Source: a candidate division WOR-3 bacterium (lineage in GTDB: Bacteria > Hydrothermota > UBA3073 > JACQXS01 > JAGMCI01). Taken from it: a DNA stretch of 64,000 nt. The stretch is from the NCBI GenBank assembly GCA_023129325.1, contig JAGMCI010000021.1:3712-67711 (forward strand), given 5' to 3'. Shown here one piece after another: positions 42,196 through 44,452 of this stretch (positions within the stretch are counted from its first letter, which is position 1; the number at the start of each line of letters is the position of its first letter). The position numbers and the translations under genes were made by a program. The notes beneath the pieces were generated by a model. That model made no database searches and was not told where the DNA came from. It saw nothing but the letters and a program-made list of their open reading frames with translations.

Positions 42196-42329
42196 CTTGG
42201 TTAAACGGTCAAATAGTTAAATGGTTAAAAAAAAGTAAGGAGTAAGTAGTAAATAATACTGCCTACTGACTTCTGCCTGCTGCCTACTTTGTTTCTATTT
42301 GCCAATCACCATTTAACCAATTACCATTT

Positions 42330-43334
42330 TTATGGTTTAATTATTACTTTAATGGATTCTTTTGCTTCGGCAACAAGTTTAAAGCCAAGTGCTGTATCTT
42401 TTAAATTTAATCGGTCAGTTATCATTTCCTTAACATTTACTTTACGAGTCCTAATAAGTTCAATTGCCTGCTTTAAATCTTGCTCTACAGCCGCGTAGGT
42501 GCTTGTCAAGGTCACACCTTTATTCCAAAGTTCAAAGAGAGGGAAAGGAATTTCAACGCCCGGTTCTGTGGGTGCAAAGAATAAAATCCAACCTCCCCTA
42601 TCAACAGATTGCAATCCTTGTTGTATGGCTGAAATAGCTGATGTGCAAATTATTACTCTATCAGCAAGTCTATTATCATTAACTTCACACACCCGTGCAG
42701 AAACATTTGTTTTTGCATTTATTGGAACAGCTCCAAATTTCTTTGCCGCTTTGAGACGATATTTATTTACATCAGTTGCAATTACTTGTTTTGCTCCAAG
42801 TGCATACGCTAATTGGATATGCAGTAATCCAGAAATACCACTTCCTATAATAAGGACAGTATTTCCTTTTTGGACATTTGCTAATCTTTGCCCCCTGACA
42901 ACACAACCTAATGGCTCTATAAATGTACCTTCTTCATAAGACATTTCTTGAGGCAATAGATAAACACCGCGGTCTACATTTATTTCTGGCACACGAACAT
43001 ATTCAGCAAACCCACCAGGGTCAAAATTAGTTGAATGTAAAGTATCACATAAAGTATGATAACCCATCAAACAATAGTGACATTCATTACAAGGAACATG
43101 ATGAGATACAAATACCCTATCCCCAATTTTGTAGTTTTTTACATCTTTCCCGAGTTTAACAATCTCACCTGTCATCTCATGCCCTAAGACTCTGGGTGCC
43201 TTTTTTATGCGATACCATTCCATAACATCGGAGCCGCATATTCCGCAAGCCTTAACTTTTACCAATAATTCACCGGGACCAATCTTTGGAATAGGCATTT
43301 TCTCTAATCGGACATCTCTATTATTATAGTACAT
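42330..43334 (-). CDS. Zinc-dependent alcohol/polyol dehydrogenase (MDR family)
   Basis: GICGSD..., GHEMTGEIV, C..C..C structural-Zn motif (CNECHYC) and GSGISG NAD site. Start moved to MYYNNRD (43334); the ORF track extends to 43364. Confidence 0.8.
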   Translation of the reverse strand: MYYNNRDVRLEKMPIPKIGPGELLVKVKACGICGSDVMEWYRIKKAPRVLGHEMTGEIVKLGKDVKNYKIGDRVFVSHHVPCNECHYCLMGYHTLCDTLHSTNFDPGGFAEYVRVPEINVDRGVYLLPQEMSYEEGTFIEPLGCVVRGQRLANVQKGNTVLIIGSGISGLLHIQLAYALGAKQVIATDVNKYRLKAAKKFGAVPINAKTNVSARVCEVNDNRLADRVIICTSAISAIQQGLQSVDRGGWILFFAPTEPGVEIPFPLFELWNKGVTLTSTYAAVEQDLKQAIELIRTRKVNVKEMITDRLNLKDTALGFKLVAEAKESIKVIIKP

Positions 43335-43481
43335 TGCCACCCACATAATTAAATTAAATATCAAATATTAAATATTAAAAATACAAATTAAAAATCAAAA
43401 ATTTTGAAACATTTTGCATTTTTGTATCTCATTTTAATTTTTACATTTTGATATTATTATGGTTTACTATTTTACACTTTG

Positions 43482-43498
43482 TTCGTTAGCTAACGGAT
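43482..43498. repeat. TCCGTTAGCTAACGGA-family palindrome at the aldolase 3' end
   Basis: TTCGTTAGCTAACGGAT. The gene's TAA stop (43486-43488) lies inside it. Confidence 0.75.
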
Positions 43499-44292
43499 TG
43501 CATTTTGATTTTCGAATTGAACAGCTCAAAAGCTTTATCAACTGATGCTTTTTTATGAACGATAGAGCGAACTGCTTGAATCATTGCCACAGGATGGTTG
43601 GATTGAAATATATTTCTTCCCATATCCACGCCACAAGCTCCTTTTTGAATGGCATTAAAGGCAAGTTTTAAGGCATCGTGTTCTGGTATCTTTTTGCCAC
43701 CTGCAATAATTATAGGAACAGGACAAGTTTTAACTACTTTTTCAAACCCTTCACAATAATAAGTTTTTACAAAATGCGCACCAAGTTCAGCAGCAATACG
43801 ACAGGCTAAGGCAAGATACTTTGCACCGCGACCCATCTCTTTTCCAACAGCTGTGACTGCTAAAACAGGGATACCATATTTTTCACCTTCATTTACAAGT
43901 TCTGATAGATTAATTAGTGTCTGATGCTCATATTTGCTACCTACATAGATAGAGAGAGTCATAGCACATACATTAAGCCTAATTGCTTCTTCTATATTGG
44001 TTGTAATACTTTCATTAGAAAGGTCATCACCAACAATACTATTGCCGCCAGATACTCTTAAAACAATTGGAATATCATTATTAGGGTCTACTGAAGTGCG
44101 TAATACCCCACGAGTAAGCATCAATGAATCAGCATAAGGAAGGAGTGGCTTAATAGTTTTGCCAGGTATTTCCAAACCACTTGTGGGTCCCAAAAAATAA
44201 CCATGGTCTACTGCTAACATAACAGTATGCCCTGTTTCGGGCTTAATTATTCTTGCTAACCTATTCTTTAATCCCCAATCCATTTTAAACAC
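43486..44292 (-). CDS. DhnA/LsrF-type class I aldolase
   Basis: 268 aa. AVDHG, a Schiff-base-type lysine context (HFVKTYY), IAGG and GRNIFQ motifs. SD is GAGGAGG. The stop codon lies inside a palindromic element. Confidence 0.7.
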   Translation of the reverse strand: MFKMDWGLKNRLARIIKPETGHTVMLAVDHGYFLGPTSGLEIPGKTIKPLLPYADSLMLTRGVLRTSVDPNNDIPIVLRVSGGNSIVGDDLSNESITTNIEEAIRLNVCAMTLSIYVGSKYEHQTLINLSELVNEGEKYGIPVLAVTAVGKEMGRGAKYLALACRIAAELGAHFVKTYYCEGFEKVVKTCPVPIIIAGGKKIPEHDALKLAFNAIQKGACGVDMGRNIFQSNHPVAMIQAVRSIVHKKASVDKAFELFNSKIKMQSVS

Positions 44293-44452
44293 CTCCTCTA
44301 AAATCTGATTTTATCACGGAATCACAGAAAAAAGAAAGAAACACGGAAAGGATAAAATTCTTTAATCTCTTGTTTTTTGAATTAAATACAAATTCTGTGT
44401 TTCTGTCATTCCGTGTTTCCGTGATTTCTTATTTCTAAACACCCTTTTAGGA

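What the first reader, a model, noticed from the sequence alone, without database searches (positions are those of the whole stretch)
42199..44425. Most long intergenic spacers are long imperfect hairpins made of spacer-specific degenerate 'words'
Beyond the CCACAGAG family, several spacers show the same design: an array of about 7-nt words followed by the inverted array. The vocabulary differs from spacer to spacer.
- 42199-42340: GTAAGGA GTAAGTA GTAAATA ... CTGCCTA CTGACTT CTGCCTG CTGCCTA, with outer GGTTAAA/TTTAACC words.
- 43357-43455: AT-only words, ATCAAAA/TTTTGAT.
- 44313-44425: ATCACGGAA, CACAGAA ... TTCTGTG, TTCCGTGAT.
- 53974-54120: GGAAAAAGGGGAAA ... TTCCCTTTTCC.
- 61436-61494.

This looks like a common generative mechanism (slippage plus inversion, or templated hairpin synthesis) and not a single mobile sequence. 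I do not recognise it as a described repeat class.
Basis: seen in the sequence. Interest (0 to 1): 0.6.

Follow-up and report, generated by a model that had tools for sequence, protein, structure and literature searches.

The report
Word-built hairpin repeats between genes
About half of the long gaps between genes in this uncultured WOR-3-type bacterium hold long imperfect hairpins built from 7-9-base "words". They are not made locally in each gap. They are copies of several repeat families scattered through the genome, and some are gene-less versions of hairpin cassettes that carry a small four-helix-bundle gene known from ribosomal-RNA intervening sequences.

Summary
The five hairpins are real. 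RNA z-scores run from -2.8 to -5.7 and ssDNA z-scores from -2.4 to -4.5. Their arms are periodic, most often with a 7-nt period.

- **Abundance.** 15 of 24 window spacers of at least 100 nt, and 53% of 300 genome spacers, fold with z below -2, against 6% of coding controls.
- **Not spacer-specific.** 151 of 172 strong intergenic hairpins have relatives elsewhere in the genome (0 of 172 shuffled). Family copies are collinear and share the same arm-to-arm mismatches.
- **Nested layers.** The G001 orthologue of spacer A keeps the outer GGTTAAA hairpin but lacks the inner module.
- **Link to PF05635.** All eight PF05635 four-helix-bundle genes of the genome sit inside such inverted word arrays. 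The inner layer of region D matches the arms of one cassette.
- **One family is widespread.** The AAATCCTAAAC family brackets one gene subfamily in this genome, in a sister genus and in several phyla.
- **Rivals weakened.** Nothing supports a terminator role, a sense-strand G·U bias or covariation. No RNase III or reverse transcriptase gene was found.

Best reading: these are MITE-like, gene-less relatives of IVS-type hairpin cassettes, and how they insert is unknown. This is a new variant of a known kind.

The parts
42199..42229 (.). Region A, outer left arm. GGTTAAA-type words (GGTTAAAC GGTCAAATA GTTAAAT GGTTAAA).
   Evidence: Similar arms occur at 3-7 other loci. This outer layer is conserved in the orthologous adh-asparaginase spacer of sister genus G001.
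42234..42254 (.). Region A, inner left arm. AGTAAGG/AGTAAGT/AGTAAAT words.
   Evidence: The inner module is absent from the G001 orthologous spacer. The match to the C16 cassette arms is not significant.
42259..42289 (.). Region A, inner right arm. CTGCCTA/CTGACTT/CTGCCTG words, only partly complementary to the inner left arm.
42296..42329 (.). Region A, outer right arm. CCATTTAACC/CCAATTA words. The whole 134-nt spacer, from the adh stop codon to the asparaginase start codon on the - strand, is this element.
   Evidence: On the - strand the outer arm ends 3 nt before the ATG. A second copy at C33 does the same.
43357..43405 (.). Region B, left arm. AT-only AAATATC/AAAAATC-type words.
   Evidence: 49-nt arms, 71% complementary. 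Strict stem score is 19 against a shuffle mean of 11.7. At least 5 other loci match.
43407..43455 (.). Region B, right arm. TTTTGAT/TTTTGCA words.
44313..44351 (.). Region C, left arm. CACGGAA/CACAGAA words. It lies downstream of a TTGACA-N17-TAAAAT site on the - strand, so it is probably in the 5' leader of the DeoC-type aldolase gene.
   Evidence: A 92-98-nt copy lies at C42:6952-7047 (92-93% identity), and other copies exist. The leader position is read from the sequence and is an inference.
44392..44425 (.). Region C, right arm. TTCTGTG/TTCCGTG words.
53974..54016 (.). Region D, outer left arm. GTGTAA + GGAAAAA/GGGGAAA words.
   Evidence: About 20 matches in this genome, with full-length collinear copies. 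The family is almost absent from 40 relatives.
54017..54044 (.). Region D, inner left arm. AATGCGAAATTAACAATT words.
   Evidence: Matches the upstream arm of the PF05635 cassette at C4:53789 (z 4.6).
54050..54086 (.). Region D, inner right arm. AAATGCTAATTGATAATTG words.
   Evidence: Matches the downstream arm of the same PF05635 cassette (z 6.7). Most other copies of the outer family lack this inner module.
54090..54120 (.). Region D, outer right arm. TTCCCTTTTCC...TTACAC.
61436..61463 (.). Region E, left arm. ATCAAAA/ATCAAAT words.
   Evidence: 27-nt arms, 78% complementary. About 20 partial matches elsewhere.
61467..61493 (.). Region E, right arm. TTTTGAT words.

Best explanation
The spacers hold members of several dispersed families of palindromic repeat elements. 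Each arm is an array of degenerate 7-9-nt words, and the other arm is the inverted array.

The elements are passengers that arrived in the spacers as ready-made imperfect hairpins, copied from elsewhere in the genome. They sit at gene junctions and in the apical loops of one another, which gives the layered hairpins of regions A and D.

At least some families are the gene-less, MITE-like counterparts of hairpin cassettes whose loop carries a PF05635 four-helix-bundle gene. That gene family is the one first seen inside 23S rRNA intervening sequences.

**Shown here:**
- the structure and its periodicity;
- dispersal in families;
- arm asymmetries shared between copies;
- nesting;
- presence or absence at orthologous junctions;
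- arms shared with PF05635 cassettes.

**Inferred:**
- gene-less forms arise from cassettes by loss of the gene;
- the A-rich-then-T-rich polarity is inherited from the cassette, where the A-rich arm is the leader and N-terminal coding part of the gene;
- most copies are neutral passengers transcribed with their operons.

**Unknown:** the enzyme and the chemistry of insertion.
For: **Structure beyond chance, and only between genes.**

**Word period.** The mode is 7 nt.

**Dispersal.**
- 88% of strong hairpins have relatives elsewhere in the genome, against none of the shuffled controls.
- Collinear full-length copies exist for each family tested.
- Copies of the GGGGAAA family share the same left-right arm differences.

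**Link to PF05635 in this genome.**
- All 8 PF05635 genes are bracketed by inverted word arrays, each with its own vocabulary.
- The inner layer of region D matches the arms of the C4 cassette (z 4.6 and 6.7).
- The AAATCCTAAAC family matches the arms of the C17 and C23 cassettes (z 10.2 and 5.9).

**The AAATCCTAAAC family in relatives.**
- In sister genus G001 the same family again brackets two homologues of the C17 gene.
- The right arm is about 93% identical between the genera and the gene about 65-70% (my count on the alignment).
- The family is in 22 of 41 relatives, with 20-39 matches per genome in six of them.
- It co-occurs with close homologues of the C17 gene (Spearman 0.57; Fisher p = 9e-5; not corrected for phylogeny).
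- In 22 of 34 loci drawn from several phyla this gene subfamily is flanked by inverted AAATNNN-type arrays.

**Filled against empty junctions.**
- G001 L012 is filled and G000 C33 is empty.
- G001 L026 has a 306-nt spacer with an element where the G000 C36 genes abut.
- Different vocabularies occupy the same junction in the two genera.
- Only a minority of 25 syntenic junctions share hairpin status.

**Nesting.**
- The G001 orthologue of spacer A has the outer layer only.
- Outer families occur with and without inner modules.

**Polarity.** The A-rich arm comes first in 134 of 176 hairpins and the T-rich arm first in 23.
Against: - No movement was seen. No same-species genomes were available, so insertion boundaries are not base-precise and no target-site duplication could be shown.
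- The G000/G001 differences could be deletions as well as insertions, because no outgroup polarises them.
- No transposase lies in the cassettes, and PF05635 has no known enzymatic activity.
- Four of the eight cassettes have private arms with few or no gene-less copies.
- The GGTTAAA, GGGGAAA and CACAGAG-type families have no cassette in this 89%-complete assembly.
- The match of region A's inner layer to a cassette is not significant.
- The co-occurrence statistic is confounded by shared ancestry.
- The outer hairpin of spacer A is almost unchanged between two genera. That points to function at that site and not to a neutral passenger.
Confidence: 0.6

Rival explanations
1. Local generation. 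Each spacer made its own hairpin in place, by replication slippage that expanded a short word, followed by an inversion-duplication or snap-back synthesis. The similarity between spacers would then be convergence on simple AT-rich words.
For: - Arms are tandem arrays with a 7-9-nt period.
- Unit number differs slightly between copies.
- Different vocabularies sit at the same junction in related genera.
- The origin of each new vocabulary needs some such process.
Against: - 151 of 172 hairpins match other loci at E <= 1e-4, against 0 of 172 shuffled sequences of the same composition.
- Matches are collinear over 90-130 nt, not just shared words.
- Left-right arm mismatches are shared by copies.
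- One family keeps 70-78% identity across genomes of a whole class.
Confidence: 0.08
2. Selected RNA structures. The hairpins are kept because they act in the transcript as terminators, as 3' stabilisers of the upstream cistron, or as double-strand processing sites like the RNase III sites of rRNA intervening sequences.
For: - Sense-strand folds are slightly more stable than antisense folds (77 against 50 hairpins, p = 0.027) and have slightly more G-U pairs (p = 0.05).
- Many hairpins fill co-directional junctions from stop codon to start codon.
- Region C lies in a probable 5' leader.
- The outer hairpin of spacer A is conserved across two genera and abuts the start codon.
Against: - A T-run follows the hairpin equally often in sense and antisense (17 against 17 of 133).
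- Hairpins are under-represented between convergent genes (10 of 172, against 72 of 687 spacers).
- Ordinary GC-rich terminators exist and look different (32145-32188).
- 1x1 mismatches show no G·T over A·C excess on the sense strand (48 against 45).
- No useful covariation appears in 8 or 37 family copies.
- No RNase III gene was found in this genome or in 19 of 26 relatives, including 96-97% complete ones.
- Turnover at orthologous junctions is high.
Confidence: 0.15
3. Protein-binding arrays. The words are the functional unit and the hairpin is secondary. The arrays would be phased binding sites, as DNA or RNA, for an oligomeric protein: the cognate PF05635 pentamer or a nucleoid protein.
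For: - Each PF05635 gene has its own vocabulary.
- The AAATNNN vocabulary travels with one gene subfamily across several phyla.
- A palindromic core, CTAAACAA(T)...TTGTTTAG, is nearly invariant in 37 copies from 8 genomes.
- Arms are more conserved than the gene between two genera.
- Word arrays also occur without an inverted partner (6693-7014 and 23962-24066).
Against: - There is no binding evidence of any kind.
- Several abundant families have no cognate gene in the assembly.
- PF05635 homologues with in-frame stops are common in relatives.
- Earlier notes of this scan report that a pre-set test of the 'protein reads its own words' idea failed in part (unchecked by me).
Confidence: 0.15

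Closest known systems
23S rRNA intervening sequences (IVS), with or without an S23p/PF05635 ORF (Coxiella burnetii, Leptospira, Salmonella; Warrier et al. 2016, PMC4990558)
   Same: - A long stem is formed by inverted ends.
- A PF05635 gene is an optional passenger in the loop.
- Tandem heptamers lie in the stem (GACAGAT in Coxiella, close to the ACAGA-type words here).
- ORF-less forms are about 100 nt long.
- The ORF decays.
   Different: - These elements sit in spacers of protein-coding operons and in each other's loops, not in 23S helices 25 or 45.
- One genome holds many vocabularies.
- No RNase III gene was found here, so the defining excision step is doubtful.
- The 23S gene is missing from the assembly.
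Heptameric intergenic repeats in inverted pairs: GGGAATC in Xanthomonas (Rehm et al. 2015, PMC4692102); heptanucleotide arrays of Geobacter metallireducens (Aklujkar et al. 2009, PMC2700814); STRR heptamers of heterocystous cyanobacteria (Mazel et al. 1990, from my own knowledge)
   Same: - Tandem 7-nt units lie mostly between co-directional genes.
- Xanthomonas has 70-75 convergent pairs that can form stem-loops.
- Most are transcribed.
   Different: - Those reports describe one or a few G-rich words per genome, read as G-quadruplex or regulator sites.
- They report no link to PF05635, no nesting and no family-level collinear copies.
MITEs (miniature inverted-repeat transposable elements)
   Same: - They are short, non-coding, dispersed and intergenic.
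- Their terminal inverted repeats fold as a hairpin.
- They share ends with a longer gene-bearing form.
- Nested copies occur.
   Different: - The gene-bearing form carries no transposase.
- No target-site duplication was seen.
- The arms are internally repetitive over their whole length.
REP/REPIN elements with RAYT (Y1) transposases (PMC3116915, PMC3333891, PMC3733652)
   Same: - They are dispersed extragenic palindromes paired with a single-copy flanked gene.
- This genome does have five Y1-type genes flanked by GTAG-type GC-rich palindromes.
   Different: - REPs are 20-40-nt GC-rich palindromes.
- The word hairpins are 60-170 nt, AT-rich and periodic, and they do not flank the Y1 genes.
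- The GC-rich REP-like units are a second system that sometimes sits inside the word hairpins.
Rho-independent terminators
   Same: A stem-loop between genes, with T-rich 3' arms.
   Different: - There is no orientation bias of the T-run.
- Stems are long, weak and mismatched.
- They are rarer between convergent genes.

Membership tests
MITE | Terminal inverted repeats, small size, multiple dispersed non-coding copies. | tested here: met
MITE | Ends shared with a longer autonomous element from which it derives by internal deletion. | tested here: inconclusive
   The arms of the inner layer of region D and of the AAATCCTAAAC family match PF05635 cassettes. Other families have no gene-bearing partner in the assembly.
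MITE | The partner encodes a transposase, and copies are flanked by target-site duplications. | tested here: not met
   The cassettes carry only a PF05635 gene. The flanks of ten copies show no consistent duplication. Boundaries are not base-precise.
REP/REPIN-RAYT | 20-40-nt GC-rich palindromes, often GTAG-tagged, that flank a Y1 transposase gene. | tested here: not met
   The Y1 genes are flanked by GC-rich palindromes and not by word hairpins. The word hairpins are AT-rich and 50-170 nt long.
23S rRNA intervening sequence | Inserted at helix 25 or 45 of the 23S rRNA gene. | tested here: not met
   The elements lie between protein-coding genes. No 23S gene is in the assembly. The search of relatives failed.
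23S rRNA intervening sequence | Stem made of inverted ends, with an optional PF05635 ORF in the loop. | tested here: met
23S rRNA intervening sequence | Excised from the transcript by RNase III. | tested here: inconclusive
No RNase III gene was found in the genome or in most relatives, which argues against this step.
Intrinsic terminator | A stable stem followed by a T-run on the strand of the upstream gene, enriched after gene ends. | tested here: not met
   The T-run follows 17 hairpins in sense and 17 in antisense out of 133. Hairpins are depleted between convergent genes.
Heptameric tandem intergenic repeats (Xanthomonas/Geobacter/STRR type) | Tandem units of about 7 nt, mostly intergenic, sometimes in convergent inverted pairs. 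| tested here: met
   (lag 7), and PMC4692102 read.
Structured RNA gene or motif | Base pairs kept by compensatory change, with strand-specific G-U tolerance. | tested here: not met
   The covariation term is positive with 8 copies. With 37 copies, only the invariant core is predicted as paired. G·T is 48 against A·C 45. There are no Rfam hits in these spacers.

The most novel reading that the evidence does not exclude
PF05635 four-helix-bundle genes and word-array hairpins form one unrecognised class of selfish cassette that crosses phylum boundaries.

- The gene travels inside a hairpin built from its own word.
- The hairpin, with or without the gene, is inserted at transcribed gene junctions and at the tips of existing hairpins by a mechanism that needs no classical transposase or reverse transcriptase.
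- The protein recognises its own words.
- In WOR-3-type genomes the gene-less offspring would account for much of the structure seen in about half of the long spacers.
Probability: 0.3. Interest if true: 0.85.

Novelty: new variant of a known kind. Interest (0 to 1): 0.62.

Why it matters
- **A large orphan family gets a testable context.** PF05635 ("23S rRNA intervening sequence protein") is very large and has no known function. This genome shows all eight of its genes packaged in word-array hairpins, together with well over a hundred strong intergenic hairpins of the same design, some sharing arms with those cassettes. That gives concrete test pairs of protein and word, for example the C17-type protein with AAATCC(T/G)AAAT...CTAAACAAT.
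- **A link between scattered reports.** It suggests that rRNA intervening sequences, the inverted heptamer pairs of Xanthomonas and Geobacter, and these spacers are faces of one phenomenon.
- **A practical warning for annotation.** In such genomes about half of the long spacers score as "structured RNA" only because of these repeats.

Tried and rejected
**Functional readings tested**
- *Terminator reading.* Rejected on T-run symmetry and on depletion between convergent genes.
- *RNase III processing, as for IVS.* Weakened, because no RNase III gene was found by Pfam model or by tblastn with three relatives' proteins.
- *Retro-element or DGR-like origin.* No reverse transcriptase was found.
- *RAYT mobilisation.* The five Y1 genes carry their own GC-rich REPs and not word hairpins.
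- *RNA-level selection.* No G·U asymmetry and no informative covariation.

**Data sources that gave nothing**
- *Strain-level comparison.* look-up of encoding contigs returned only a 100% identical contig. The metagenome scan found nothing closer than 73% identity, and that only on a partial match.
- *IVS in relatives' 23S genes.* The search failed twice.

**Methods that under-performed**
- *My regex vocabulary classifier.* It was too strict and placed only 58 of 172 hairpins, so I give no census of families or of layer order.
- *blastn-short with cassette arms.* It found few or no gene-less copies for four of the eight cassettes.
- *Strict Watson-Crick stem score.* It misses very degenerate hairpins such as region A.

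One malformed search call returned only an error.
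Full report
**Setting.** The window is C14:3712-67711 of a 2.02-Mb, 57-contig assembly that is 89% complete. GC content is about 36%. One genome of the same class, G019, is titled "candidate division WOR-3 bacterium" in the public record, so the organism is a WOR-3-type uncultured bacterium.

The listed spacers lie in a run of minus-strand genes: asparaginase (41290-42195), a zinc alcohol dehydrogenase (42330-43346/43364), a DeoC-type aldolase (43486-44292) and an unassigned gene (44512-45576). 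The two further spacers are at 53948-54164 and 61448-61518.

- All five stretches fold better than 200 dinucleotide shuffles as RNA on both strands, with z from -1.6 to -5.7 and each region at -2.8 or lower on at least one strand. They also do so as single-stranded DNA, with z from -2.4 to -4.5.
- The inverted-repeat tool finds B, E and C among the longest pairs of the window.
- Region A is the weakest. With Watson-Crick pairs only, its best stem scores no better than shuffles. Its inner arms share a rhythm more than true complementarity.
- The "words" are real. In 236 arms of strong intergenic hairpins the best autocorrelation lag is 7 nt in 66, lags 8, 9, 10 and 14 are also enriched, and shuffled arms are flat.

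**How common is it?**
- In the window, 15 of 24 spacers of at least 100 nt fold with z below -2, and 11 with z below -3.
- Genome-wide, 53% of 300 random spacers of 100-350 nt have z below -2 and 42% have z below -3. Length-matched coding pieces give 5.7% and 3%.
- A strict stem score reaches 14 or more in 8.4% of mostly intergenic 260-nt windows, against 0.33% of their shuffles. Fully coding windows show no excess (0.31% against 0.22%).
- That scan gives 176 strong intergenic hairpins, with a median span of 91 nt.
- So "most long spacers" is fair for the window and means about half for the genome.

**The vocabularies are not spacer-specific.** This is the main correction.
- Each of the five hairpins has similar arms elsewhere.
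- Of the 172 strong hairpins that have a gene on both sides, 151 match at least one other locus at E <= 1e-4, 124 match at least three and 54 match at least ten. Composition-matched shuffles give 0 of 172.
- The matches are collinear copies and not shared simple words. Region C has a 92-98-nt copy at 92-93% identity. The GGGGAAA family (outer layer of region D) has about eight full-length copies at 75-90%. The AAATCCTAAAC family has eight or more. The CCACAGAG family has seven.
- Copies of the GGGGAAA family differ between left and right arm in the same way in every copy. The imperfect hairpin was therefore inherited whole and not re-created by a fresh inversion in each spacer.

**Layers.**
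- Many hairpins are concentric. An outer pair of arms of one family encloses a complete hairpin of another. ATCAAAA arms are found around CACGAAT, CCTAAAT, GAAGACC or CCACAGAT modules, and the reverse order also occurs.
- Region D is GGGGAAA outside and AATGC.AATTAACAATT inside. Most other GGGGAAA copies have a short plain loop instead.
- Region A is GGTTAAA outside and GTAAG/CTGCC inside. In the nearest available genome, G001 (same family, another genus, flanking proteins 64-72% identical), the orthologous dehydrogenase-asparaginase spacer keeps the outer hairpin almost letter for letter but has no inner module.
- That is a clean nested indel. Without an outgroup I cannot say whether it is an insertion here or a loss there.

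**Link to four-helix-bundle genes.** A note from an earlier stage of this scan pointed to PF05635 genes between inverted heptamer arrays. I tested this here.
- The genome has eight PF05635 genes, and all eight lie between an array of 7-9-nt words and its inverted copy. Each has its own vocabulary.
- The inner arms of region D match the arms of the cassette at C4:53789 (z 4.6 and 6.7). The AAATCCTAAAC family matches the arms of the cassettes at C17 and C23 (z 10.2, 5.9 and 4.3). The inner layer of region A does not significantly match any cassette.
- In G001 the AAATCCTAAAC arms again bracket two homologues of the C17 gene, one of them truncated.
- Between the two genera the right arm is about 93% identical, and the gene about 65-70% (my count on the alignment).
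- The A-rich arm runs into the open frame of the gene as a low-complexity N-terminal extension.

**Spread of the AAATCCTAAAC family.**
- It occurs in 22 of 41 related genomes, with 20-39 matches in six of them. The GGGGAAA family is almost confined to this genome.
- Genomes with a close homologue of the C17 gene are the ones rich in the family (Spearman 0.57; Fisher p = 9e-5; not corrected for phylogeny).
- In the species-representative collection, homologues of this gene at 43-87% identity lie in MAGs labelled WOR-3, Thermodesulfovibrionales, Saccharibacteria, Desulfobacterales, Planctomycetes, Ignavibacteria, Balneolaceae and Omnitrophota. In 22 of 34 loci they are flanked by inverted AAATNNN-type arrays.
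- Some of those arms use the very AAATATC words of regions B and E.
- Gene and arms therefore travel together, across phyla.

**Turnover.**
- At junctions syntenic between G000 and G001, elements are present in one genome and absent in the other. G001 L012 has the element where G000 C33 has none. G001 L026 has a 306-nt spacer with an element where the G000 C36 genes abut at TAATG.
- The same junction can hold different vocabularies in the two genera.
- Hairpin status agrees at only a minority of 25 junctions.

**What the hairpins probably do not do.**
- *Terminators.* A T-run follows them equally often in sense and antisense (17 and 17 of 133). They are rarer between convergent genes than spacers in general. 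Ordinary GC-rich terminators are present and look different.
- *RNA-level selection.* It is barely detectable. Sense folds are slightly more stable (77 against 50, p = 0.027). Single mismatches are G·T as often as A·C on the sense strand (48 against 45). Alignments of 8 and 37 copies give no useful covariation; what is conserved is an almost invariant palindromic core, CTAAACAA...TTGTTTAG.
- *RNase III.* This is the enzyme that excises rRNA intervening sequences. It was not found in this genome or in 19 of 26 relatives.
- *Other enzymes.* No reverse transcriptase was found. The five Y1 (RAYT-like) genes are flanked by their own GC-rich GTAG palindromes, a separate repeat system.

**Polarity.** The A-rich arm comes first in 134 hairpins and the T-rich arm first in 23. 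This property is the same on both strands. I read it as a legacy of the cassette, where the A-rich arm is leader and N-terminus and the T-rich arm follows the stop codon. That is an inference.

**Conclusion.**
- The best explanation is several families of MITE-like palindromic repeats with word-array arms. Some are demonstrably the gene-less form of PF05635 hairpin cassettes of the intervening-sequence kind.
- How they are inserted is unknown. Local slippage plus inversion may explain how a vocabulary is born, but it does not explain the individual spacers.
- A few copies may have been put to use. One example is the outer hairpin of spacer A, which is conserved across genera and ends 3 nt before the start codon.

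**Literature.** I found only partial descriptions: inverted GGGAATC pairs in Xanthomonas (PMC4692102), heptanucleotide arrays in Geobacter metallireducens (PMC2700814), and heptamers in the stem of the Coxiella IVS (PMC4990558). No paper ties them together.

**Limits.**
- There are no same-species genomes.
- Gene calls are my own longest-ORF model.
- The assembly is incomplete.

Noticed in passing
window 33444-33508, 35110-35150, 44426-44511 (- strand); genome-wide list: The T-rich end of the CCACAGAG family (…CTCTGTGNNCTCTGTGGTT), a T-run and a consensus TTGACA-N17-TATAAT promoter recur as one block. TTGACA follows 37 of 518 such ends within 25 nt (7.1%, against 2.6% of intergenic positions). 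The element may carry or attract an outward promoter.
   Followed up: partly
G000 whole genome; relatives G001-G025: No RNase III gene was found in this genome or in 19 of 26 relatives, including assemblies that are 96-97% complete. A lineage without RNase III might tolerate long double-stranded stems in its mRNAs.
   Followed up: partly
G000 C36:23050-23388, C18:6562-6882, C56:33585-33857, C22:8619-8927, C37:21313-21471: Five Y1-transposase (RAYT-like) genes are each flanked by their own GC-rich palindromes, several starting with GTAG. This probably explains the small GC-rich palindromes seen in spacers, in hairpin loops and inside genes of this genome.
   Followed up: partly
G000 C18:13700-14350: A PF05635 cassette with AGTGAGA/CTCACTT arms sits exactly between two tRNA genes.
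   Followed up: no
G000 C17:22936-23000: A GC-rich mini-palindrome (GACCCTGAACTTGCTTCAGGGC) is inserted in frame into the A-rich arm that forms the N-terminal extension of the C17 four-helix-bundle gene.
   Followed up: no
relatives, (e.g. G011:C7, G001:C11, G034:C93): Several homologues of the C17-type four-helix-bundle gene carry in-frame stop codons, and one G001 copy is truncated. The gene decays, as reported for the Coxiella IVS ORF.
   Followed up: no
G000 C33:17890-18085 and G001 L012:2820-3030: A roughly 190-nt non-coding stretch upstream of a conserved gene is well conserved between the two genera (GGGCTTCCTGTGATGTTCGTGATGGG...CCCCACACGGCA). It looks like a structured leader RNA. I did not search it against Rfam.
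   Followed up: no
window 6693-7014, 23962-24066, 33896-33994: Arrays of GTG-ending words (CTCTGTG, TCGTG, TAGTG) occur without an inverted partner in the same spacer. Word arrays therefore also exist as half elements.
   Followed up: no
G002 L002:4190-4800: In G002 the aldolase-dehydrogenase junction holds an extra small ORF and GC-rich palindromes in a roughly 580-nt gap. Other relatives have 0-70 nt there, so this junction is a hot spot for insertions.
   Followed up: no
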